Positions 25,962-35,513 of a DNA stretch of 64,000 bases are shown here, one piece after another (positions within the stretch are counted from its first letter, which is position 1; each line of letters begins with the position of its first letter). Under the pieces are notes generated by a model. It saw nothing but the letters and a program-made list of their open reading frames with translations, had not been told where the DNA came from and made no database searches. A program made the position numbers and the translations under genes. This DNA comes from Elusimicrobia bacterium RIFOXYA12_FULL_51_18 (GTDB lineage: Bacteria; Elusimicrobiota; Elusimicrobia; Elusimicrobiales; UBA9959). Location of the stretch: NCBI GenBank assembly GCA_001800245.1, contig MGVA01000043.1:93098-157097 (forward strand), given 5' to 3'.

Positions 25962-27443
25962 ATGCCGGCTAAAAAAGCGGAACTTCAGGCGCCTGAGACG
26001 GCGGCGATATCGGAAGATAATCTTAAGGCTTTATTTAAAAAGACTTTCAGCGAGGAGATCGCGGACTTTACACCGCTCAAGGGCGACGCTTCCGCCCGGC
26101 GGCTGTTCAGGATAAAAAGCGCCGGGCGTTCCGTTATCGGCGCCGTGGGGCCGGATAGGCTGGAAAATACGGCCTTTGTGGAGTTCTCAAGGCATTTTAA
26201 GAAGGAAGGGCTGCCGGTGCCGGCGATCTACTCCGCGGACCTTTCAAAGAACATCTATCTGGAAGAGGACCTGGGCGACATGACCCTGTTCCAGTTCATG
26301 CTCAAGGAGCGCACCGGCCCCGATATCCCGGAATCCGTGCTGGCGGCCTATAAAAAGACCATCGACTGGCTGCCCGCTTTCCAGATGAGAGCCGGCAAGA
26401 CCCTGGATTATAAGTACTGCCATCCCCGCGACAGTTTCGATCGGCAGTCTATAATGTGGGACCTGAACTATTTCAAGTATTATTTTCTGCGCCTCTCTAA
26501 GATCCCGTTCAGCGAGCAGAAGCTGGAGGACGATTTCAACGCCCTTACCGCCTTTCTGCTGGAAGCCGACACCTCTTATTTCATTTACCGGGATTTTCAG
26601 TCCAGAAATATCATGCTCCGCGATGGTGAGCCCTCTTTTATAGATTACCAGGGAGGTCGTAAAGGGGCCTTACAGTATGACGTCGCCTCCCTGCTTTATG
26701 ACGCGAAAGCAGACTTGCCGCCGGAGACGCGGCGCGAGCTGCTGGCGCATTACCTGAAGGGCGCGGGCGCATCCGGCGTGGATAAAGCCGTTTTTATGAA
26801 GTATTTCCACGCTTACGTTTATATAAGGATAATGCAGGCGCTGGGCGCCTACGGCTTGCGCGGCTTCTATGAGGGCAAGGCGCATTTCCTTCAGAGCGTG
26901 CCTTACGCCGTCAGGAACATCGAATGGCTGCTCAGGCGGGGCGACGTGCCGGTGAAGATGCCGGAACTGACCAGGATATTTAAAAGCATGGCCGCGTCCT
27001 CTTATCTGCGTCAGTTCGGTTCCACCAAACTGGGGCTGACGGCGCGCTTGACAAGTTTTTCCTACCGCAACGGCCTACCGTCCGACGATAAAGGCCACGG
27101 CGGCGGTTTTATTTTCGACTGCCGCTTTCTCCCCAATCCCGGCCGGGAGGAAAAGTATGCCCCCTTGACCGGCAGGGACGCCGAAGTTATTTCATATCTG
27201 GCCGCCGCGCCGCAGGTCGGAGCGTTTTTGGAGAACGTGTTCAGCATCGTGGATCCGGCGGTGGAGAATTATATGTCGCGGAACTTTACGGACCTGATGA
27301 TTTCGTTCGGCTGCACCGGCGGCAGGCACCGCTCGGTTTACTGCGCCGAGCAGCTTAAAAAACATCTCGCTGAAAAATACAAAATGAGAGTGGAGCTCCA
27401 GCACCGGGAGCTTGAACCCCTCGCCAAAGAAACCCGCTTATGA
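25962..27443 (+). CDS. fusion protein: AmgK-like (APH-fold) sugar kinase + RapZ C-terminal domain
   Basis: N-terminal 'FIYRDFQSRNIML...FIDYQGG...YDVASLLYDA'; C-terminal 'FIFDCRFLPNPGRE...GCTGGRHRSVYCAEQL' matches the RapZ C-terminal domain. Confidence 0.7.
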   Translation: MPAKKAELQAPETAAISEDNLKALFKKTFSEEIADFTPLKGDASARRLFRIKSAGRSVIGAVGPDRLENTAFVEFSRHFKKEGLPVPAIYSADLSKNIYLEEDLGDMTLFQFMLKERTGPDIPESVLAAYKKTIDWLPAFQMRAGKTLDYKYCHPRDSFDRQSIMWDLNYFKYYFLRLSKIPFSEQKLEDDFNALTAFLLEADTSYFIYRDFQSRNIMLRDGEPSFIDYQGGRKGALQYDVASLLYDAKADLPPETRRELLAHYLKGAGASGVDKAVFMKYFHAYVYIRIMQALGAYGLRGFYEGKAHFLQSVPYAVRNIEWLLRRGDVPVKMPELTRIFKSMAASSYLRQFGSTKLGLTARLTSFSYRNGLPSDDKGHGGGFIFDCRFLPNPGREEKYAPLTGRDAEVISYLAAAPQVGAFLENVFSIVDPAVENYMSRNFTDLMISFGCTGGRHRSVYCAEQLKKHLAEKYKMRVELQHRELEPLAKETRL

Positions 27444-28180
27444 AAGCTATGATCCTGGCCGCCGGCCTCGGCAAACGGCTGCGGCCCCTGACCGACGCTA
27501 CGCCAAAAGCGCTGGCGGATATAGGCGGCGTGACCTTGCTTGAAGTCATCCTGCAGCGGCTTGCAAAAGCCGGCGTCACGGAAGCCATAATAAACACCCA
27601 TCATCTGGCCGAAAAATTAACCGATTTCCTGGAGAACAAACAGCGCTTAGGGCTGAAAGTCGAAATTTCCCGAGAAACGTTTTTCCCGTTGGAAACCGGC
27701 GGCGGCTTAAAAAAGGCCGCCTGGTTCTTCGGCGATGGGAAACCGTTCTTCCTGCATAATTGCGATATTTTCACCGAGCTGGACCTTTCGGCGCTGTACC
27801 AAGCCCATCTGAACGGCTGCGCCCTGGCCACTTTGGCGGTAAAGGAGCGTCCTTCAAAAAGGCAGTTGCTGTTCGCCCCGGAACTTGATCTTAAAGGCCG
27901 GTTCCTGGCGGATGGGAATATGACGGAGTGGTGCGGCGAACCAGTAAAGGACCCGCTGAAACTCGCGTTCAGCGGAGTGCAGGTCGTTTCCCCGGAAATT
28001 TTCCCGCTCATGACGGAGACCGGCGTGTTCTCTATAATGGATGTTTATCTGCGGTTGGCCGGGGCCGGTTCTAAAATAAAAGGTTTCCGCATGGACGAAT
28101 CCTACTGGCAGGACATAGGTAGCCTTGCGAAGCTGGAAGTCCTGCGCAAGTATGTCGCGGAAAAAGGAATAAGGATTTAG
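27440..28180 (+). CDS. sugar-1-phosphate nucleotidyltransferase (MurU-like)
   Basis: 'MKAMILAAGLGKRLRPLTD'; ATGA overlap with the upstream kinase fusion. Confidence 0.7.
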   Translation: MKAMILAAGLGKRLRPLTDATPKALADIGGVTLLEVILQRLAKAGVTEAIINTHHLAEKLTDFLENKQRLGLKVEISRETFFPLETGGGLKKAAWFFGDGKPFFLHNCDIFTELDLSALYQAHLNGCALATLAVKERPSKRQLLFAPELDLKGRFLADGNMTEWCGEPVKDPLKLAFSGVQVVSPEIFPLMTETGVFSIMDVYLRLAGAGSKIKGFRMDESYWQDIGSLAKLEVLRKYVAEKGIRI

Positions 28181-28288
28181 TTTGAGTGGAGGACCCCTAC
28201 CCGGTTGCGCTTTTGGGTATCTTTTGTGACAAAAGGGTCAGGTCATGAAATTTATTAAAATACAATGGGATGGTTTTTGAGAGGTAAT

Positions 28289-28672
28289 ATGGTTAAACAA
28301 TTGTTTATTTTGATCTTGATCGGGATTTCGATATGCCTTTCAGGCGGCACTTATGGTTTAGGGCCTTTCCTGCACGCTGAAGCAGTGTTGCTGGTGTTCG
28401 GCGGAACTTTTCTGCTTACGTGGGCGGCTTATCCGCTCAAAGAGATTCTACATCCATCCGGCCCTGCCCCGCTCGTATATGCCGGCGGATCTGCTATAGG
28501 CCTGGGGGTACTGGTCACACTGCTGGATTTGATGGTTGAGTTTTGGGTCGGCCCTGGAACCGCAGAACTTACGCGTCGTTTCGCGGCAGCGCTGGCCGGT
28601 CTGTTCTACGGGTTCCTGCTCTCAAAAGTCATCATAGCTCCTATTGCCGCGCGCCTTGCCGTAAGGGAGTAG
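28289..28672 (+). CDS. small membrane protein with MotA/ExbB-like C-terminal helices
   Basis: 'LAGLFYGFLLSKVIIAPIAARL' resembles the last TM pair of MotA/TolQ/ExbB channels; no MotB/ExbD partner nearby. Confidence 0.4.
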   Translation: MVKQLFILILIGISICLSGGTYGLGPFLHAEAVLLVFGGTFLLTWAAYPLKEILHPSGPAPLVYAGGSAIGLGVLVTLLDLMVEFWVGPGTAELTRRFAAALAGLFYGFLLSKVIIAPIAARLAVRE

Positions 28673-28818
28673 GGGGAGGAGAAAAGGTAACAGGAACCTT
28701 TTGTGCCCAGTAGCGGAGAGCAAGCTCCACCGTCATTCTATAGTGGAGGAGGTACACGGGGCTGGGGCGGAGGGCAAATCCCGGACAGGCCATGGCGGGG
28801 CTTCTCGCGGCGCTACCC

Positions 28819-28843
28819 CCAAAGCCAACCAGTTGCCGTTACA
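28819..28843 (+). repeat. copy of module 'CCAAAGCCAACCAGYYGCC-GTTAC'
   Basis: 17/19 identical to 35490-35508 and to the reverse complement of 33618-33636. Confidence 0.7.
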
Positions 28844-28992
28844 TAATAACTCTAAATCTGTATTTCTTTTTCTGCCATCTTTCTTTCTTCCGAATAATCC
28901 ATATTGCCGATGCTTCCCGCCAGGGAGGTCGAAAGCTGGGTTGCAAAACGGGGGTTGGCACTTTTAGGGGGGGATTTTGTAAACTTACGCTA

Positions 28993-30399
28993 ATGACTCA
29001 GCCTCGCAAAACACTCAATAAACTGCTGAAACCTTCACAGGCTATTCATGCGCTTCATCCGGAGGTTCCGAAGAACGAGGTTATCCACGCGTTGCGTGAG
29101 CGCGTCAAGGAATTGACGGCGCTTCACTCCACGGTATGCGTGCTGCAGGATGACAATCTTTCGACAAAAGAGGTGCTTGACCGCATAGTCAAGCTTATCC
29201 CGCCGGCATGGCAGTACCCGGAAATTACCTCGGGGCGCATAATCGTCGGAGACTGTGAAGGCCGGAACCGCGGCTTCAGGCGCACGCGCTGGCTGCAGGC
29301 TTGCGATTTCCGGATAAGTCCGTCCCTCTCCGGCCGTATCGAGGTTTACTACCTTAAAAAAATGCCGAAAGAGGCGGAGGGCCCGTTCCTCGCAGAGGAA
29401 CGCAATCTTATTAATTCCCTGGCCGATATGCTTCGGGTTTATTTTGAGCGCAAGTCGGCTTCGAAGGAATTGCTGGACGCGCACAACGACCTGGAACGGC
29501 GTGTGAAAGACCGCACGGCCGAACTGGAGAAGCTTAACTCCGCCCTGAAAGCCGAGATCAGAGAACGTGAGCTGCGCCAGAAGGAAATACTCTCTTATCA
29601 GGAAAAACTGCGGGGCCTCTCGGCGGAGCTCATTCTGACGGAGGAGCGCGAACGCAGGGAGATAGCCACGGACCTGCACGATATAATAGGCCAGACGCTG
29701 GCCATGGCTAAAATGAAGGCCGGCGCCCTTCGCGGCTACTGCTCCGTCCCTGAAGCGTCTTCCGAACTGAAGAATCTTTCGGGTTTTATAGACGAAGCGA
29801 TACTCGCGAGCCGTAACCTGACTTTCCAGCTGGCTTCTCCCATACTTTACGAGTTGGGCCTTGAGAGCGCGCTTGAACGCCTGGCTGCGGATACGCGCAA
29901 ACGTCAGGGTCTTGCGGTGGATTTTCACGGCGACGGCAGACGCACTTCTTTGCCTACTGAGACCAGTGTTCTGATCTTCAAGGCGGTGCGCGAACTTCTG
30001 ATGAATGCCGTGAAACACTCGAAGGCCTCGGAAGTAAAGGTGAGGATGCGCAGCGGCGGTGGCAAGATAGCTGTAACTGTGCGTGATAACGGCTGCGGTT
30101 TTAACGCCGCGGCGGCTTCGGTCTATGACGGCGATAAGGGGGGCTTCGGGCTTTTCTCCATCAGGGAAAAAGTTTCCCGCCTGGGCGGGGCCTTCCGGCT
30201 GAGTTCGCGCCGGGGTTCGGGCACGCTGGCGGTAATAACGGCGCCTCTGGAGCCTGTCCGACATAAGGCGTTCATGGCGAAACTGCCGATTTTGAAGCCG
30301 AGCCGACGCGACGCGAAACTAGCATCCTCGACTAGAGGATGTAAGTTGAGCGGCGCTAAGGCGCAGGCAAAAAGCGGCAGTTGCAGACGAAATCGCTAA
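28993..30399 (+). CDS. cytoplasmic sensor histidine kinase (HisKA_3 / NarL-partner type)
   Basis: Start at 'MTQPRK'; coiled coil; H-box 'DLHDIIGQTLA'; 'LLMNAVKHS', 'DNGCGF', 'GGFGLFS'. The last 40 or so codons are encoded by a dispersed repeat. Confidence 0.8.
   Translation: MTQPRKTLNKLLKPSQAIHALHPEVPKNEVIHALRERVKELTALHSTVCVLQDDNLSTKEVLDRIVKLIPPAWQYPEITSGRIIVGDCEGRNRGFRRTRWLQACDFRISPSLSGRIEVYYLKKMPKEAEGPFLAEERNLINSLADMLRVYFERKSASKELLDAHNDLERRVKDRTAELEKLNSALKAEIRERELRQKEILSYQEKLRGLSAELILTEERERREIATDLHDIIGQTLAMAKMKAGALRGYCSVPEASSELKNLSGFIDEAILASRNLTFQLASPILYELGLESALERLAADTRKRQGLAVDFHGDGRRTSLPTETSVLIFKAVRELLMNAVKHSKASEVKVRMRSGGGKIAVTVRDNGCGFNAAAASVYDGDKGGFGLFSIREKVSRLGGAFRLSSRRGSGTLAVITAPLEPVRHKAFMAKLPILKPSRRDAKLASSTRGCKLSGAKAQAKSGSCRRNR
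30290..30368 (+). repeat. dispersed repeat copy (modules M1-hairpin-M2) at the HK/RR junction
   Basis: 28-nt block 26/28 identical to the reverse complement of 33870-33897; central hairpin CATCCTC/GAGGATG (30323-30341). Confidence 0.7.
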
Positions 30400-30432: not shown

Positions 30433-31080
30433 ATGGAAAAAAAGATACTGATCTGCGACGATCATAAGATATTCCGTGAAGGCCTGCGCGCCCTGCTTGA
30501 AAAACAGCCCGGCATTAAAGTGATCGGCGAGGCCAGGGACGGCATAGAGTCGGTGCGTCTGGCCAAAGAACTTTCTCCGGACATCGTCATAATGGATATT
30601 TCAATGCCCGGCCTGAACGGCATAGAGGCTTCCCGCAAACTCGCCAAAACGCGGAAAGCGGCGCGTATAATCGCTCTCTCAATGCACAACGACCGTAAGT
30701 ACGTGACGGAGATTTTCAAGGCCGGCGCGCGCGCCTACCTGTTAAAAGATTCGGCTTTTGAAGAGCTTTTGGACGCTATCAAGGCGGTGAATTGCGGCCG
30801 GTTCTTTCTGAGCGCCGGCATCACAAGCCTGGTGCTGAGCGATTATATAAAGGGGCCCGCCGGAGACCCCCGCAGTCCGTTCACTATACTTTCCGCGCGC
30901 GAAAGGGAAGTGCTGCAACTCCTGGCCGAGGGGCTGCGTACCAAGGAGATATCTCACAAATTGGACTTAAGCGTCAAGACGGTGGAAACCCACCGCAAAA
31001 AAATAATGGAAAAAATAGGGATTACTAGCATTGCCGGCCTCACCCGTTACGCGGTAAAGGAGGGTCTGGTAAGTCTGTAA
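30433..31080 (+). CDS. NarL/LuxR-family response regulator
   Basis: Receiver domain 'ILICDDH...DIVIMDISMPGLNG'; LuxR HTH 'LSAREREVLQLLAEGLRTKEISHKLDLSVKTVETHR'. Confidence 0.9.
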   Translation: MEKKILICDDHKIFREGLRALLEKQPGIKVIGEARDGIESVRLAKELSPDIVIMDISMPGLNGIEASRKLAKTRKAARIIALSMHNDRKYVTEIFKAGARAYLLKDSAFEELLDAIKAVNCGRFFLSAGITSLVLSDYIKGPAGDPRSPFTILSAREREVLQLLAEGLRTKEISHKLDLSVKTVETHRKKIMEKIGITSIAGLTRYAVKEGLVSL

Positions 31081-31256: not shown

Positions 31257-32468
31257 ATGTTCGATACCGGAAATACGGGTTTCATGCTCGTTTCGACCAG
31301 CCTCGTTATGCTCATGACCCCGGGACTTGCTTTTTTCTACGGCGGGCTTGTGGGCCGCAAGAACGTGCTGGCGATAATGATACAGAGCTTCGTTTCCATG
31401 GGCGTCACCACGGTGCTTTGGTACGCTTTCGGCTACTCACTGTGCTTCAGCGGCGGGGAGGGTGCTGTGATAGGCAACCTGGACATGGCTTTTATGCACG
31501 GCATCACGCCTACAACGGCCTTCGCCGGCTCCACCAGCATCCCGTTGCTGGTGTTCTTCGGCTACCAGATGATGTTCGCCCAAATCACCCCGGCGCTCAT
31601 CACCGGCGCGTTTACCAACCGAATTAACTTTAAGGCCTACCTGATCTTTCTGGTAGCCTGGCTGATCTTCGTTTACTTCCCCCTCTGCCACATGGTCTGG
31701 GGCGGCGGCCTTATGGCCGCGCACGGCGTGCTTGACTTCGCCGGTGGCATAGTGGTACACGCGACGGCGGGCTTCGCAGCCCTGGCCTCGGTGTTCTTCG
31801 TAGGTAAACGCAAGGTGAAAGACCAGGGCGCGCACAGCATACCGCTGGTGGCGCTTGGCACCGGCCTGCTCTGGTTCGGGTGGTACGGCTTCAATGCCGG
31901 CAGTGAATTGAAGGTGGATTCGGTGACTGCGCTCGCGTTCATCAACACCGACGTGGCGGCTTCCTTCGCCGCCATCACCTGGCTGGCCATCGCCTGGGTG
32001 CTTGAGAAGAAGCCCAAGTTCGTCGGCTTGCTGACCGGCTCCATCGCCGGTCTCGCCACCATTACCCCGGCGGCCGGCTACGTTACCACCAAGTCCGCGG
32101 TGTTCATCGGCATTCTCTCCAGCGTGGTTTGCTATATGGCGGTAAACATGAAGAACAAGATGGGCTGGGATGACGCTCTTGATGTATGGGGCGTGCACGG
32201 AGTGGGTGGAGTCCTGGGCGTGGTAATGCTCGGCGTCCTCGGCACTACAGCGGTCAACGCCGCCGGCGCCAACGGCCTGTACCATGGCGACGCCGCGTTC
32301 TTCGGCAAGCAGGTGGCGGCGGTGTTCTGCACCGCGCTTTACGCATTCCTGTTCTCTTACGCCGCTCTCTACGTCATCAATATCTTTACTCCGGTAAAGA
32401 CCGCGGAGAAGGAAGAAGAGACCGGTCTCGACGAGGCGCAGCATGGGGAAACCGCCTACCTTGCATGA
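31257..32468 (+). CDS. amt: ammonium transporter
   Basis: 'AFFYGGLV', 'DFAGGIVVHATAG', 'GWYGFNAGS', 'WGVHGVGG'. Confidence 0.9.
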   Translation: MFDTGNTGFMLVSTSLVMLMTPGLAFFYGGLVGRKNVLAIMIQSFVSMGVTTVLWYAFGYSLCFSGGEGAVIGNLDMAFMHGITPTTAFAGSTSIPLLVFFGYQMMFAQITPALITGAFTNRINFKAYLIFLVAWLIFVYFPLCHMVWGGGLMAAHGVLDFAGGIVVHATAGFAALASVFFVGKRKVKDQGAHSIPLVALGTGLLWFGWYGFNAGSELKVDSVTALAFINTDVAASFAAITWLAIAWVLEKKPKFVGLLTGSIAGLATITPAAGYVTTKSAVFIGILSSVVCYMAVNMKNKMGWDDALDVWGVHGVGGVLGVVMLGVLGTTAVNAAGANGLYHGDAAFFGKQVAAVFCTALYAFLFSYAALYVINIFTPVKTAEKEEETGLDEAQHGETAYLA

Positions 32469-32541
32469 CTAGGAGAGTCTCTAAAAGCCCGCCCGTGGGC
32501 AACTGGCGGGCTTTTGTCGGCTATTATTGAGGAGAAATATA

Positions 32542-33282
32542 ATGAAAAAATTACATATGCTGGCGTTAGTTCTTATATTCCTGGCCCCGCTGACGGCGAA
32601 TGCCACTCCTTCCACGCAGATCTGGATACCATCTACCGACATACAAAAGTATAAAACTCCGCACCTGAATGTTGATAATTACGCGGCGGTCAAAAAAGAA
32701 CCGGGTGGCCTGTGGAAAGCTCCTGTTTTTATGGCGGGACCCACCATTGGAGTGCTGCCTTACGAAAAAGTTCAGGCGGAGGCCGGGTTTGATGTGATGA
32801 GGGCGGGTTTAGCTTCGGACAGCTATCCGTTCTATTTACATGCCAAGGTCGGCACTCCGGAAAGGACTATGTTTGCCGGCTCTCCGGCGCTGGCTGTCGG
32901 CGGCTATAATTTCGGCATGAAACAAGGGGTTACCAACCAGAATATTGTTTATGGCTTGGCGGCGAAGAATCTGGCTAAGATCGGAAGGCTGTCCGCGGGT
33001 TATTACTCCGGTAACGACAATGTGCTTCTGGATGATAACGGCGACAAAGCCAACACCGGCGTGCTGCTTTCCTGGGACAGGAGCATTAGTGAAGTTTCCG
33101 ATAAGCTTTGGGCGGCGCTTGATTATCAGGGAGGGGATTCAGCTATGGGCGCCCTCAGTTTCGGCGTTTCCTGGGCATTTGCTTCCAACACGAGCGTGGT
33201 ACTCGGCTACGACGTGTATAATAACCACAAAATGTCCGGAGCCGATACTTTCACGGTTCAGTTCGATATCAATCTCTGGTAA
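32542..33282 (+). CDS. porin-like outer-membrane beta-barrel protein
   Basis: Signal peptide 'MKKLHMLALVLIFLAPLTANA'; beta-strand periodicity; C-terminal 'QFDINLW'. Confidence 0.5.
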   Translation: MKKLHMLALVLIFLAPLTANATPSTQIWIPSTDIQKYKTPHLNVDNYAAVKKEPGGLWKAPVFMAGPTIGVLPYEKVQAEAGFDVMRAGLASDSYPFYLHAKVGTPERTMFAGSPALAVGGYNFGMKQGVTNQNIVYGLAAKNLAKIGRLSAGYYSGNDNVLLDDNGDKANTGVLLSWDRSISEVSDKLWAALDYQGGDSAMGALSFGVSWAFASNTSVVLGYDVYNNHKMSGADTFTVQFDINLW

Positions 33283-33352
33283 GAAAAATATTGCCAGCGG
33301 AATGTTTGAATGAAGAATGCGGTTAAAAGTTGACGACACAAAGGAGAATGCG

Positions 33353-33538
33353 ATGAATACCAATAACACAAACAACAACCGGAATAAGAACAAGCAACAG
33401 AATCGGAACAATCAGCAGCCCCAGAACCAACAGCAGAATCAAAACCAGCGGCAGAATCCTAACCAGCAACAGGATCAGGCCCGGCAGCAAAATCAGCCGC
33501 AGCCCCAGCAGCCGAAGAAAAAGTCCTGCTGTTGCTAA
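33353..33538 (+). CDS. Gln/Asn-rich micro-protein ending in SCCC
   Basis: AAAGGAG RBS 6 nt before the ATG; 61 codons dominated by N/Q/R/K; terminator immediately downstream. Confidence 0.45.
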   Translation: MNTNNTNNNRNKNKQQNRNNQQPQNQQQNQNQRQNPNQQQDQARQQNQPQPQQPKKKSCCC

Positions 33539-33560: not shown

Positions 33561-33592
33561 AAAAGGCCCCGCCTATAAAGCGGGGCCTTTTT
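33561..33592. terminator. bidirectional intrinsic terminator
   Basis: GGCCCCGC (33565-33572) / GCGGGGCC (33580-33587), A-run before and T-run after. Confidence 0.7.
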
Positions 33593-33599
33593 CACTTCC

Positions 33600-33930
33600 A
33601 AGTAAACAAAATATAGTGGCGGCTGGTTGGCTTTGGCGCGAGAGCCGCATGATCGCGCAGTCGGGCCGCCGGCGGGTTTTCTGCGCGCTTCGGGACCGGG
33701 TTTATGGGAATGAAAACCGGAGTCTCCCGCCGGCTTCGCAACTCGGGCAAAAGACAAGCCTATGGCAGTGCCGTATCAGGGACTGTGTCTATCAGACGGC
33801 CACCGCACTGCGGTTTCCCCTGCTGCGCCATCGCGCTGCTCAACTTACAGGTTCATTGGAGCCTGTTCGTTTCGCATCGCTTCGGCTCGGCTTCAAAAAA
33901 TAAATTCAGTTTTGGGGTATGTTGACAACC
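33600..33930 (-). ncRNA. longest copy of the modular intergenic repeat family; candidate structured RNA
   Basis: No credible ORF; contains all repeat modules in one array, nested helices (33668-33676 pairs with 33726-33734), and runs into the 33561-33592 terminator on the minus strand. Confidence 0.35.
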
Positions 33931-34394
33931 AGAACAATGGAGGCAAAACTGAAGGTTTTAAAGCAAAACACCAACCCGAAGTGAGTTGGTGAATTGCCTG
34001 TAAATTGGCGCGGTCAATGGGGGCCCCAACATAACTTTTTTGTGTTCGGCCTTCATTGGGGAAACCAGTTTTATCCCATCCTTTTCTCTTACTTTGGATC
34101 TATTTCAAATAATTGGATTTGAGCAAGGGCGAAAGGTTCCTGTCAGCCGTACCTGAAGCCGTATAAACCCATAAATTTAGAATCCGTTTAACTTAAGGGG
34201 CAAGGGGATTCGGACTGCGCGCAAAATTTATAAAACAGCCACTCTTTTTGTATCATACCGGTAAGGGGATATTTCTGCTACTTTCCGCGAAAAAATTGGG
34301 ATAAAGAAACGACTGCGCTGAAACTCCACAAAAAATATCAAAACGTACATCCAGTTGTTCTGGTAAGCTGTTGGTGAGGATTCAGGATAAGAAT

Positions 34395-35279
34395 ATGGAT
34401 TATCTAGAGCGTATTCAAAGATCGTTGGATTGGATGGAGGCCAATCTCCATGAAGATATCGGTTCGCACGAAGGAGCCCGGGAGGCATTCATGTCCCCTT
34501 GGCATTTCCACTGGGTGTTTAAGGCCATGGTGGGGGAAACTCCTGGCGATTATCTTCGCAAGCGACGATTAACAAACGCCGCGCAGGAACTCGCACACGG
34601 TGATAAAAGGATAATTGAGATAGCTATGGATCACCAGTTCGAATCCCAGGAATCCTTCAGCCGGGCTTTCAAAAAGCATGTTGGAGCGACACCTGGTCAA
34701 TACCGTATAAGCAGGCCGCTCCTTACGGTATTGTCCAAACGAATGCGTCTGACCGAACGGGAGCTCAGACACCGTACAGGAGGAATGACAATGAAACCAA
34801 AAATAGTTTCAAAAGAAGAATTCAATGTGGTCGGCATGGTGATAAAAACCACTGTAAAGGAGAATGCTGAAGGCAAGACTATCCCGAGATTGTGGGCCAG
34901 GTTCAATCCACGCGTGAAAGAGATATCTAATGTGTCCGAACGCATTTCTTACGGTATATGTCTCAACGAAAAAGGTTTTGACCCCAAAACCTTTGATGAT
35001 GTTGCGAAGTTCAATTATATGGCCGCCGTACCGGTGAAGAAACTTGCCGGGATTCCTAAAGGCATGGCACTGCGTACGATCCCGGCTCAGAAATATGCCG
35101 TATTTACCCACAAAGGTTCGCTTGATAACTTGCGGTTTACGCTGGAGTATATTTACGGAACCTGGGTAGCGAAGTGCGGATATGAACTGGCGCAGGGACC
35201 CGATTTAGAGTTGTACGACCATAGATTTAAATTCGGACAGCAGGATAGTGAGTTGGATATTTATGTCCCGGTAAAATAA
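34395..35279 (+). CDS. AraC-family transcriptional regulator with GyrI-like effector-binding domain
   Basis: AraC HTH 'FMSPWHFHWVFKAMVGETPGDYLRKRRL...SQESFSRAFKKHVGATPGQYR'; C-terminal GyrI-like half; ATG at 34395 preceded by AGGA. Confidence 0.85.
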   Translation: MDYLERIQRSLDWMEANLHEDIGSHEGAREAFMSPWHFHWVFKAMVGETPGDYLRKRRLTNAAQELAHGDKRIIEIAMDHQFESQESFSRAFKKHVGATPGQYRISRPLLTVLSKRMRLTERELRHRTGGMTMKPKIVSKEEFNVVGMVIKTTVKENAEGKTIPRLWARFNPRVKEISNVSERISYGICLNEKGFDPKTFDDVAKFNYMAAVPVKKLAGIPKGMALRTIPAQKYAVFTHKGSLDNLRFTLEYIYGTWVAKCGYELAQGPDLELYDHRFKFGQQDSELDIYVPVK

Positions 35280-35489
35280 CCCCGGCCCCGGAAGAGATCA
35301 CCCGGCGGACCCCGCGAGCCTCACAAGTAAAACGTCAGACTTCTATCGAAAGATAGATGTGTCTTAAATATGGGCGGGATTGTTGTTAACAATTTAAGGA
35401 AGTGGCGAGTAACGGGCTAAAGGACCATCAAGTGCGTAAGTTTTACGCGGGGTGACAGGCCCTCGCTTTGCTATCCTGCGATGCTCAAG

Positions 35490-35513
35490 CCAAAGCCAAC
35501 CAGCCGCCGTTAC
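35490..35513 (+). repeat. copy of module 'CCAAAGCCAACCAGCCGCC-GTTAC'
   Basis: Exact reverse complement of 33618-33636; overlaps the stop codon of the minus-strand TPR gene. Confidence 0.75.

What the first reader, a model, noticed from the sequence alone, without database searches (positions are those of the whole stretch)
33353..33538. Nitrogen-rich micro-protein (about 60% Asn/Gln plus Arg/Lys) ending in Cys-Cys-Cys, last gene of the amt-porin operon
The peptide reads 'MNTNNTNNNRNKNKQQNRNNQQPQNQQQNQNQRQNPNQQQDQARQQNQPQPQQPKKKSCCC'. It has a strong RBS (AAAGGAG) and a clean terminator. It sits directly after an ammonium transporter and a porin-like gene that follow a two-component system. 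A peptide made almost entirely of the most nitrogen-rich, glutamine-pool-dependent residues, in an ammonium-uptake operon, is an odd coincidence. Its translation could report Gln/Asn-tRNA availability. It could act as a small nitrogen store, or as a disordered, Cys-anchored (acylated or metal-binding) envelope peptide. All of these are speculation. What the sequence shows is the composition, the signals and the context.
Basis: partly seen in the sequence, partly recalled or inferred. Interest (0 to 1): 0.55.

Follow-up and report, generated by a model that had tools for sequence, protein, structure and literature searches.

The report
Asn/Gln-rich micro-gene ending Cys-Cys-Cys
A real but never-annotated 61-codon gene at the end of an ammonium-uptake gene cluster in a few groundwater Elusimicrobia encodes a floppy, positively charged peptide made mostly of asparagine and glutamine with a fixed Lys-Lys-x-Cys-Cys-Cys end; evolution preserves its composition and its two ends, but what it does is still unknown.

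Summary
ORF 33353-33538 encodes the stated 61-aa peptide (62% Asn+Gln, 15% Lys+Arg, ending KKKSCCC). It has an AAAGGAG ribosome-binding site and a strong terminator, and it follows a sensor kinase, a response regulator, Amt and a 12-strand beta-barrel porin. The window is Elusimicrobia bacterium RIFOXYA12_FULL_51_18.

The ORF is not chance low-complexity DNA. Five further distinct versions (59-77 aa) sit at exactly this position in related Elusimicrobia. All keep the ribosome-binding site plus ATG, an MN(N/T)N start, 62-81% Asn+Gln, net positive charge and (K/Q)K(K/N)(S/P)CCC-stop. None contains His, Glu, aromatic or beta-branched residues.

Neighbouring genes differ at 36-60% of four-fold sites. 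Neutral simulation at that divergence destroys the ORF, its composition and the CCC-stop.

The peptide body changes freely through in-frame tandem duplications, with non-synonymous changes at least as common as synonymous ones. Selection therefore acts on composition and on the two ends.

The gene is patchy: about 6 of roughly 35 operons carry it, with repeated losses. No gene caller has called it and no protein database holds a relative.

The nitrogen-store, leader-peptide, lipoprotein, RiPP and structured-RNA readings are not supported. My best inference, at low confidence, is a disordered cytoplasmic accessory peptide of an Amt module that lacks glnK.

The parts
28792..30399 (+). Sensor histidine kinase (HisKA_3 + HATPase_c), first gene of the conserved HK-RR-amt-porin block
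   Evidence: Pfam; synteny in about 25 Elusimicrobia loci
30433..31080 (+). NarL/LuxR-type response regulator
   Evidence: Pfam, NCBIfam; 87-95% identical across the HK-RR-amt-porin loci (81% in L025; ~58-60% for the different two-component system in L012, L031 and L052)
31257..32468 (+). Ammonium transporter Amt (OGS07554.1)
   Evidence: PF00909 E = 2.8e-105; TIGR00836; exact look-up
32482..32516 (+). Conserved GC-rich hairpin plus U-run between amt and the porin gene (partial terminator or stabiliser)
   Evidence: Folded in 10 loci with different stem sequences but the same hairpin
32542..33282 (+). Unannotated outer-membrane 12-strand beta-barrel ('porin-like'), with signal peptide and C-terminal ...DINLW
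   Evidence: No Pfam/NCBIfam match; 2819 homologues; AlphaFold pLDDT 83; Foldseek best matches NanC, COG4313 channel, KdgM
33340..33346 (+). Shine-Dalgarno sequence AAAGGAG, 6 nt before the ATG
   Evidence: AGGAG is invariant in all aligned members (for L193 and L187)
33353..33538 (+). Micro-ORF: 61 codons plus stop, giving a basic, Asn/Gln-rich, disordered peptide
   Evidence: conserved in L193, L011, L012, L187 and L019/L124
33389..33495 (+). Decayed in-frame 18-nt tandem repeat (unit about N-Q-Q-Q-N-Q) that forms the body of the ORF
   Evidence: TRF; L019 has a young 42-nt x 4.3 array at 97% matches
33515..33535 (+). Invariant C-terminal motif: polybasic, then S/P, then Cys-Cys-Cys (KKKSCCC), directly followed by the stop codon
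   Evidence: Alignment A3, A2, A4; the stop codon varies (TAA or TGA) but its position does not
33561..33592 (+). Intrinsic terminator of the transcription unit
   Evidence: Fold at -24 kcal/mol, z = -4.25; homologous hairpin in all related loci with or without the micro-ORF

Best explanation
SHOWN. This is a genuine micro-gene under evolutionary constraint, not accidental low-complexity DNA. It is the last cistron of the (HK-RR-)amt-porin unit in one sub-clade of free-living Elusimicrobia. Its product has no predicted fold and no hydrophobic residues, has pI 9.4-10.8, and is 62-81% Asn+Gln. The only sequence-specific parts are the start MN(N/T)N and the C-terminus (K/Q)K(K/N)(S/P)CCC-COOH. 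The body evolves by in-frame tandem duplication and free exchange within a polar set (N, Q, K, R, S, T, P, D, G). Selection therefore acts on composition, net charge and the two ends. The gene is dispensable and has been lost repeatedly.

INFERRED (origin). It probably arose by triplet-repeat expansion in the 3' untranslated region between the porin stop codon and the operon terminator.

INFERRED (mechanism, low confidence). It is a cytoplasmic accessory peptide of the ammonium-uptake module. The polybasic/tri-Cys tail is the docking or reactive end. It could bind the anionic inner face of the membrane or Amt, or work through thiol or metal chemistry. The Asn/Gln-rich body makes production of the peptide unusually dependent on amide-amino-acid supply: 38-62 Asn/Gln codons per chain, about 12-16 times the density in the operon's other genes. 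Ribosomes are known to slow at Gln codons under nitrogen starvation. The peptide would therefore accumulate only once nitrogen returns. It could then damp uptake, the role GlnK (helped by sP36 in Methanosarcina) plays elsewhere. These Elusimicrobia amt loci have no glnK.
For: - Conservation: six distinct ORFs at the same position share SD + ATG, composition and KKxCCC-stop.
- Constraint: neighbouring genes differ at 36-60% of four-fold sites. Neutral simulation at d = 0.2-1.0 keeps the ORF in 8% down to 0.2% of runs, keeps CCC-stop in 17% down to 0.06%, and keeps Asn+Gln >= 0.6 in under 0.1%.
- Residue census over 385 residues: no His, Glu, Phe, Trp, Tyr, Ile or Val; one Leu; 29 Lys, 14 Arg, 7 Asp.
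- Protein-level constraint on the tail: the stop codon varies (TAA/TGA) but always follows the third Cys.
- Disorder: AlphaFold pTM 0.16 with no secondary structure.
- Context specificity: all real hits of a context-free metagenome DNA scan lie after the same porin gene.
- No P-II gene in the 64-kb window or in any Elusimicrobia amt locus, whereas every non-Elusimicrobia locus in which the porin gene lies beside an amt gene (36 loci) has glnK next to amt (synteny).
- Asn+Gln is about 5% of codons in the operon's other genes.
- Gln-codon stalling under nitrogen starvation is stated in PMC7858274, citing Li et al. 2018.
- Precedent for a 61-aa Amt-regulating small protein: PMC10714827.
Against: - There is no direct evidence of translation. 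No gene caller has called any of the six ORFs and no protein-level relative exists.
- The gene is present in only about 6 of 35 operons examined, and close relatives lack it (L001, L200, L202). Any function is therefore non-essential, and the peptide is not a general GlnK substitute.
- T-poor DNA keeps reading frames open by composition alone, and slippage can renew low complexity without selection.
- In L013 the 'GCTGCTGCTGAA + spacer + terminator' tail persists without the ORF. The tail may therefore predate the gene or have an RNA- or DNA-level role.
- Nothing tested here shows binding to Amt, the membrane or a metal.
- It is assumed, not shown, that the operon is induced by nitrogen limitation.
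Confidence: 0.4

Rival explanations
1. Translated proto-gene with little or no function. A triplet-repeat expansion in the 3' UTR happened to create an ORF behind a usable ribosome-binding site. It persists in some lineages and is being lost in others.
For: Distribution is patchy, with at least six inferred losses inside the clade. The body has non-synonymous changes at least as common as synonymous ones: window versus L193 gives 7 synonymous and 19 non-synonymous, spread 10/11/13 over codon positions. There are young tandem repeats. A tail remnant survives without the ORF in L013. The ORF is absent from all protein databases.
Against: SD, ATG, composition, charge and KKxCCC-stop are all retained across lineages whose neighbouring genes are near saturation at silent sites. 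His and Glu are completely absent although each is one mutation from Gln, Asn or Lys codons.
Confidence: 0.2
2. A codon-demand sensor acting in cis, with the peptide itself irrelevant. Ribosomes queue on the Asn/Gln codon run when amide amino acids are scarce. That changes the stability or processing of the amt-porin mRNA from its 3' end.
For: Composition rather than sequence is conserved, and length is flexible at 59-77 codons. Gln-codon stalling under nitrogen starvation is documented. Runs of regulatory codons are the hallmark of leader peptides, including polycysteine sORFs.
Against: The ORF is 3'-terminal with nothing downstream to attenuate. The next gene is convergent in L019/L124 and L193, and unrelated (kdp) in L011/L012. 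The terminator folds independently, 22 nt after the stop. The invariant basic-CCC C-terminus and the fixed stop position are not explained. No 3'-terminal sensor ORF of this type is known.
Confidence: 0.12
3. A thiol or metal peptide unrelated to nitrogen. The C-terminal Cys3 binds a soft metal (Cu(I), Zn, Cd, Hg), bridges an Fe-S cluster, or carries a persulfide. The polar body serves as a soluble tether.
For: Cys-Cys-Cys is the only strictly invariant residue cluster. Vicinal Cys pairs act as metal hand-off arms in known proteins, such as the MerA C-terminus (own knowledge).
Against: Only 3 of 59-77 residues are Cys. No metal, redox or sulfur-trafficking gene is linked. All six copies sit in the amt-porin unit.
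Confidence: 0.1
4. A non-coding 3'-UTR element. It could be an A/C-rich single-stranded (ARN-like) protein-binding tract or a 3'-UTR-derived small RNA ending in the operon terminator. On this reading the ORF is fortuitous.
For: AT skew is +0.6 and the T-poor composition keeps frames open. The Cys codons (CUGCUG) can always pair with upstream CAGCAG. The tail motif survives in L013 without the ORF. Gene callers reject the ORF.
Against: A well-spaced AGGAG + ATG is conserved in all six copies. Minimum free energy is no better than codon-shuffled controls (z = -0.5 to +2.2), and the pairing partner is not conserved. There is no Rfam match. The stop codon type varies while its position is fixed.
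Confidence: 0.08
5. An exported or modified peptide: a RiPP precursor, or a Cys-anchored envelope peptide partnered with the porin.
For: A Cys-rich C-terminus with a long polar 'leader' superficially recalls RiPP precursors. The ORF is adjacent to an outer-membrane protein gene.
Against: There is no signal peptide, lipobox or hydrophobic stretch. No maturase, protease or exporter gene lies in any of the six neighbourhoods.
Confidence: 0.03
6. A small ribosomally made nitrogen store.
For: Side-chain N per residue is 0.79-1.03, against 0.17 for Amt and 0.26 for the porin.
Against: Per unit mass it holds only about 30-40% more nitrogen than the neighbouring proteins (15.3-16.6 versus 11-13 N per kDa). 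A store would not need an invariant KKxCCC end. The ORF is also encoded in an uptake operon that is presumably expressed when nitrogen is scarce.
Confidence: 0.02

Closest known systems
sP36 of Methanosarcina mazei (61-aa small protein that mediates GlnK1-AmtB1 inhibition after an ammonium up-shift; PMC10714827)
   Same: Same size class (61 aa). Cytoplasmic. Tied to an ammonium transporter. Overlooked by annotation. Found in organisms lacking the canonical GlnD/GlnK switch.
   Different: sP36 is a folded protein with homologues at 37-95% identity and is not encoded in the amt operon. The peptide here is low-complexity, has no predicted structure, ends in CCC, and sits in loci that have no glnK at all. 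Homology was not tested because no sP36 sequence was at hand. No function has been shown here.
Leader peptides of attenuators (thrL, hisL, trpL; mycobacterial polycysteine leaderless sORFs, bioRxiv 10.1101/834739)
   Same: A short ORF dominated by codons for the nutrient being sensed, followed closely by an intrinsic terminator. Composition matters more than sequence. There is a weak sub-threshold Rfam Thr_leader match (24.7 bits against a gathering score of 55).
   Different: Those ORFs are the first element of the regulated operon and overlap alternative hairpins. This one is the last cistron, the next gene is often convergent, and no alternative pairing with the terminator is predicted.
Gln/Asn-rich prion-like domains (yeast Sup35/Ure2; Clostridium botulinum Rho; own knowledge)
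   Same: Extreme Asn+Gln content, lack of hydrophobic residues, and evolution by repeat expansion with composition conserved.
   Different: Here the tract is a free-standing 59-77-aa peptide rather than a domain of a larger protein. It is interrupted every few residues by Lys, Arg or Pro, which disfavour amyloid. It also carries a Cys3 end. Aggregation was not tested.
C-terminal polybasic-plus-cysteine membrane anchors of eukaryotic small GTPases (Ras/Rho hypervariable regions, Rab CC/CXC ends; own knowledge)
   Same: The motif logic is the same: a Lys cluster immediately before terminal cysteines on a flexible tail.
   Different: Those cysteines are prenylated or S-acylated by eukaryotic enzymes. 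No such enzyme is known or seen here, and the host is a free-living bacterium. The resemblance is a lead only.
Small proteins encoded in transporter operons (KdpF, AcrZ, MgtS/MgtR, CydX; own knowledge)
   Same: A very small product co-transcribed with a transporter and usually missed by annotation.
   Different: All of those are single hydrophobic transmembrane helices. This peptide has no hydrophobic residue.

Membership tests
Attenuator leader peptides | Run of codons for the sensed amino acid(s) | tested here: met
   38-62 Asn/Gln codons per ORF (62-81%), against about 5% in the operon's other genes
Attenuator leader peptides | Located 5' of the genes it regulates | tested here: not met
   It is the last cistron. 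It is followed by a terminator and then by a convergent gene in L019/L124 and L193, kdpA in L011/L012, and AraC after 780 nt in the window
Attenuator leader peptides | Mutually exclusive terminator/antiterminator hairpins overlapping the ORF end | tested here: not met
   The terminator folds on its own 22 nt after the stop. ORF RNA is no more structured than codon-shuffled controls, and pairing partners are not conserved
sP36-type Amt regulators | Sequence or structure homology to sP36 (a folded small protein) | tested here: inconclusive
   sP36 is described as structurally conserved. This peptide has pTM 0.16 and no secondary structure. A direct sequence comparison was not possible because no sP36 sequence was at hand
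sP36-type Amt regulators | Works together with GlnK on AmtB | tested here: not met
   No P-II gene in the 64-kb window or in any Elusimicrobia amt locus. A copy elsewhere in the genome is not excluded
Bacterial lipoproteins or secreted peptides | N-terminal signal peptide with a lipobox Cys or a cleavage site | tested here: not met
   The N-terminus is MNTNNTNNNRNK, there is no hydrophobic residue anywhere, and the Cys residues are at the extreme C-terminus
Metallothioneins | High Cys content (typically over 15%) in repeated CxC/CC motifs | tested here: not met
   3 Cys in 59-77 residues (4-5%), in a single cluster
RiPP precursors | Co-located maturase, protease or exporter genes | tested here: not met
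   Neighbours are HK, RR, Amt and porin, followed by unrelated genes that differ between loci
Gln/Asn-rich prion-like domains | Gln/Asn-rich, low-charge composition | tested here: inconclusive
   Asn+Gln of 62-81% meets the criterion, but 8-15% Lys+Arg and up to 8% Pro interrupt the tract
Gln/Asn-rich prion-like domains | Self-propagating amyloid formation | not testable with these tools
   Requires experiment
Any known protein or RNA family | Significant match in Pfam, NCBIfam, PDB, 5.8-billion and 1.84-billion protein sets, or Rfam | tested here: not met
   No hit (profile of six), 42 or 43
KdgM/NanC-like 12-strand outer-membrane channels (the neighbouring gene) | Signal peptide plus a 12-strand beta barrel | tested here: met
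   AlphaFold pLDDT 83, helix at residues 2-17 and then 12 strands. Foldseek top hits are NanC, a designed 12-strand barrel, the COG4313 channel and KdgM, with TM 0.46-0.53 and 8-12% identity. This is a fold-level match only

The most novel reading that the evidence does not exclude
The peptide is a 'synthesis-gated' nitrogen brake. Two thirds to four fifths of its codons need Asn- or Gln-tRNA, so it can be completed only when the amide-amino-acid pool recovers. Its polybasic/tri-Cys end then docks it on Amt or on the membrane to shut down ammonium uptake. That would be a ribosome-based nitrogen-status sensor replacing the P-II/GlnK switch in bacteria whose amt loci lack glnK, and it would have been born de novo from a triplet repeat in a 3' UTR.
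Probability: 0.15. Interest if true: 0.8.

Novelty: new variant of a known kind. Interest (0 to 1): 0.55.

Why it matters
Small proteins encoded inside transporter operons are a known kind, and one (sP36) already controls an ammonium transporter. This family has no relative in any protein or RNA database, has never been called as a gene, and differs from known examples in being hydrophilic, disordered and defined by composition.

It is a clean case of a micro-gene apparently built from a triplet repeat between a stop codon and a terminator, then held by selection on composition plus two short end motifs.

The composition runs opposite to the 'nitrogen-sparing' trend reported for assimilation proteins (Baudouin-Cornu et al. 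2001, own knowledge). The peptide carries 4-6 times more side-chain nitrogen per residue than Amt and the porin beside it.

If its synthesis or action tracks nitrogen status, that would be a new way of sensing nitrogen in bacteria whose amt loci lack GlnK. If it has no function, it is still a useful documented example of de novo gene birth and repeated loss in uncultivated bacteria. It also shows what gene callers systematically miss.

Tried and rejected
- Protein homology searches found nothing: single sequence against 5.8 billion clusters, the exhaustive 1.84-billion representative set, a profile of six members, PDB, Pfam and NCBIfam. Exact look-ups show that none of the six ORFs, nor a 73-aa extended form, is in the collection.
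- My metagenome DNA pattern was too loose. After filtering, only 3 were real (L124, L187, L193). The rest were AT-rich or eukaryote-like microsatellites such as L164. The census is therefore incomplete.
- Six extra porin contexts fetched by exact protein look-up (P0003, P0004, P0005, P0009, P0011, P0033) carry no micro-ORF.
- Read-through or frameshift extension of the porin is rejected. The micro-ORF is in the porin's frame in L011 and L012 but not in the window or L019.
- The upstream in-frame ATG at 33317 (73-aa form) is rejected. It is not conserved in L193, where a TAA lies in frame.
- A leader role for kdp (L011/L012/L187) is rejected. The kdp genes follow the terminator, and the arrangement is absent from the other members.
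- A conserved RNA structure, Rfam families, a nitrogen store, a lipoprotein and a RiPP are all rejected (see rivals and membership tests).
- Codon bias: AAT/AAC and CAA/CAG use in the ORF does not differ significantly from the operon genes, so there is no sign of selected slow codons.

Full report
1. OBSERVATION

The ORF exists exactly as described. Window 33353-33538 translates to MNTNNTNNNRNKNKQQNRNNQQPQNQQQNQNQRQNPNQQQDQARQQNQPQPQQPKKKSCCC*. It has 17 Asn and 21 Gln (62%) and 9 Lys/Arg (15%). Net charge is +8 and pI is 10.6. AAAGGAG lies 6 nt before the ATG. A 12-bp GC-rich hairpin plus U-run at 33561-33592 folds at -24 kcal/mol, z = -4.25.

Upstream on the same strand are four genes:
- a HisKA_3 histidine kinase;
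- a NarL-type response regulator;
- Amt (PF00909, E = 2.8e-105);
- a 246-aa protein with no Pfam or NCBIfam match.

With an 18-sequence alignment, AlphaFold predicts that last protein (pLDDT 83) as a signal peptide followed by a 12-strand beta barrel. Its best PDB matches are NanC, the COG4313 channel and KdgM. 'Porin-like' is therefore justified at the fold level.

The window comes from Elusimicrobia bacterium RIFOXYA12_FULL_51_18: its Amt is OGS07554.1.

One refinement to 'operon'. A conserved hairpin plus U-run sits between amt and the porin gene. The hairpin is maintained with different stem sequences in ten loci. Too little room is left for a separate promoter. The porin gene and the micro-ORF are therefore probably expressed by read-through of a partial terminator.

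2. IS IT MORE THAN LOW-COMPLEXITY DNA?

Protein searches were blind. No hit came from the single sequence, from a six-member profile or from PDB. The ORF itself is not in the 15-billion-protein collection, so no pipeline ever called it. I therefore worked at the DNA level.

I used the porin as an anchor and fetched 80 genome loci. A six-frame scan for Asn/Gln-rich ORFs found only four in about 650 kb. All four lie directly after the porin stop codon: the window, L011, L012 and L019.

It added L187 and L193 and re-found L019 as L124. All of these again lie after the same porin in the same HK-RR-amt-porin block.

The six distinct peptides are 59-77 aa long. They share:
- AGGAG, then 6-7 nt, then ATG;
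- an MN(N/T)N start;
- 62-81% Asn+Gln and 8-15% Lys+Arg, with pI 9.4-10.8;
- the end (K/Q)K(K/N)(S/P)CCC followed at once by TAA or TGA;
- then 22-40 nt and the operon terminator.

Across 385 residues there is no His, Glu, Phe, Trp, Tyr, Ile or Val, and only one Leu.

3. EVIDENCE OF CONSTRAINT

Amt and the porin differ between the window and the other carriers at 36-60% of four-fold degenerate sites. That is roughly 0.5-1 substitution per neutral site.

I simulated neutral evolution of the window ORF at d = 0.2-1.0. The results were:
- the ORF stayed intact in 8% of runs at the lowest divergence, falling to 0.2% at the highest;
- CCC-stop was kept in 17% falling to 0.06%;
- Asn+Gln >= 0.6 was kept in fewer than 0.1%;
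- no run had a body free of hydrophobic residues, His, Glu and stop codons.

The model ignores slippage, which could renew low complexity. Slippage would not preserve the ribosome-binding site, the start codon or the tail.

Within the body the picture is different. Window versus L193 shows 34 identical codons, 7 synonymous changes, 19 non-synonymous changes and 2 gap codons. Differences are spread evenly over codon positions (10/11/13). Length changes are in-frame tandem duplications. L019 has a 42-nt unit in 4.3 copies at 97% matches. The window has a decayed 18-nt unit in 5.9 copies.

Selection therefore acts on composition, charge and the two ends, as is usual for disordered regions carrying short motifs. 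AlphaFold gives pTM 0.16 and no secondary structure.

4. DISTRIBUTION AND ORIGIN

On a porin tree all carriers fall in one clade, interleaved with non-carriers (L001, L005, L014, L200, L202, L205, L207 and others). L001 is the sister of carrier L193 and has a rearranged operon end.

About 6 of roughly 35 operons examined carry the ORF.

In non-carriers the terminator follows the porin stop directly. In L013 the sequence after the stop reads GCTGCTGCTGAA, then a spacer, then the terminator. This aligns with the last Cys codons, the stop and the spacer of L011. It is a deletion remnant, or else the ancestral 3' UTR from which the ORF grew.

The most economical history is one birth by triplet-repeat expansion in the 3' UTR, followed by several losses. 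The gene is therefore dispensable.

5. WHAT IT IS NOT

- Not a leader peptide. It is the last cistron. The next gene is convergent in L019/L124 (NamZ) and L193 (TPR), kdpA in L011/L012, and AraC after 780 nt in the window.
- Not a porin extension. The reading frame relative to the porin differs between loci.
- Not a structured RNA. There is no Rfam family. The Cys codons (CUGCUG) always find some CAGCAG to pair with. However, folding energy is no better than codon-shuffled controls (z = -0.5 to +2.2) and the partner moves.
- Not a lipoprotein, exported peptide, metallothionein or RiPP. It has no signal or hydrophobic segment, only 3 Cys, and no maturase or exporter nearby.
- Not a sensible nitrogen store. 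Side-chain N per residue is 0.79-1.03, against 0.17 for Amt and 0.26 for the porin. Per kDa, though, it holds only 15.3-16.6 N atoms against 11-13.

6. HOW IT MOST LIKELY WORKS (INFERENCE)

The peptide must be cytoplasmic, polycationic and unfolded, and it is made together with the uptake proteins.

Two facts frame the best guess.

First, every non-Elusimicrobia locus in which the porin gene lies beside an amt gene (36 loci: Desulfuromonadales/Geobacter, Deferrimicrobia, Nitrospirota, Bacteroidales) has a P-II gene beside amt. These amt units instead carry a two-component system.

Second, Asn/Gln codons are 12-16 times denser in the micro-ORF than in the rest of the operon. Ribosomes are reported to stall at Gln codons under nitrogen starvation (PMC7858274 citing Li et al. 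2018).

A peptide whose completion depends on the amide pool, and whose invariant basic/tri-Cys tail is a docking or reactive end, could act as a post-starvation brake on Amt. That role is analogous to GlnK with sP36 in M. mazei (PMC10714827).

I hold the statement 'real, translated, selected micro-gene' at about 0.8. I hold the specific mechanism at about 0.15-0.2. Combined confidence is 0.4.

The main rivals are:
- a nearly functionless proto-gene (0.2);
- a purely cis-acting codon-demand sensor (0.12);
- a thiol or metal peptide (0.1);
- a non-coding 3'-UTR element (0.08).

7. COMPARISON AND NOVELTY

No defining feature of leader peptides beyond the codon run is met. sP36 is folded and GlnK-dependent. 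KdpF/AcrZ-type operon micro-proteins are hydrophobic helices. Prion-like Gln/Asn domains are parts of larger proteins. Polybasic-Cys anchors are eukaryotic.

The family is therefore new at the sequence level, with no relative anywhere. It is best filed as a new variant of the known kind 'small accessory proteins co-encoded with transporters'. If the synthesis-gated brake model proves true, it would be categorically new.

8. VERDICT

Interest is 0.55. This is a strange, conserved, previously invisible gene in a meaningful context. It is also rare, dispensable, found only in uncultivated organisms, and without any direct functional evidence.

Noticed in passing
window 32542-33282; loci L001-L080: The porin-like 12-strand barrel belongs to a large family (2819 homologues) with no Pfam or NCBIfam model. 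It is syntenic with amt in Elusimicrobia, Desulfuromonadales/Geobacter, Deferrimicrobia, Nitrospirota and Bacteroidales. Paralogues in L016 and L024 are followed by kdpF-kdpA instead, and L070 also has kdpA downstream. This suggests an outer-membrane channel for NH4+/K+-sized cations. PMC3543383 mentions an unknown protein family next to an ammonium transporter and ethanolamine/choline lyase clusters in Pelobacter, which may be the same family (not checked).
   Followed up: partly
window 32482-32516, and the amt-porin spacers of L001, L004, L008, L011, L012, L019, L021, L187 and L193: A GC-rich hairpin followed by a U-run lies between amt and the porin gene in every locus. The stem sequences differ but pairing is kept, and only 15-25 nt remain before the porin ribosome-binding site. 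It looks like a conserved intra-operon partial terminator or mRNA stabiliser that sets the Amt:porin ratio.
   Followed up: partly
window 1-64000; all Elusimicrobia loci versus the others: No P-II (glnB/glnK) gene lies near amt in any Elusimicrobia locus or anywhere in the window. Every non-Elusimicrobia locus where the porin gene lies beside an amt gene (36 loci) has glnK adjacent to amt. The Elusimicrobia carry a HisKA_3 kinase and a NarL-type regulator upstream instead.
   Followed up: partly
window 33593-35509 versus L193 100-290: In L193 the convergent TPR gene follows the micro-ORF directly and shares a long bidirectional terminator. In the window about 1.9 kb is inserted here. It consists of an AraC/GyrI-like regulator (34371-35279) plus 780 nt with no recognisable gene or RNA family.
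   Followed up: partly
window 28181-28791: A 135-aa ORF (28265-28672) with weak MotA/PomA-like transmembrane matches sits between the nucleotidyl-transferase gene and the kinase gene. In L193 these two genes are only about 20 nt apart, so this is a lineage-specific insertion.
   Followed up: no
L013 1283-1350; L015 4730-4790: Directly after the porin stop, L013 reads CCGGCTGCTGCTGAA, then a spacer, then the terminator. This aligns with the Cys-Cys-Cys-stop tail of the micro-ORF, without the ORF body. L015 has GCTGCTGTTGC. The background rate of this motif is 0.017 per 200 nt, so one of the two could be chance.
   Followed up: partly
window 25962-28180: An APH-kinase protein with a RapZ C-terminal domain, followed by an NTP-transferase, resembles the AmgK/MurU MurNAc-recycling pair (the name comes from my own knowledge). 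In L019 the gene convergent on the operon end is a NamZ exo-muramidase.
   Followed up: no
L011 5224-6915, L012 5224-6915, L187 3397-3828: In the L011/L012/L187 lineage the kdp operon lies immediately downstream of the micro-ORF terminator. Direct repeats of the type TTTACGG-N-TTTACGG lie in the spacer and look like a KdpE-type site (the name comes from my own knowledge).
   Followed up: no
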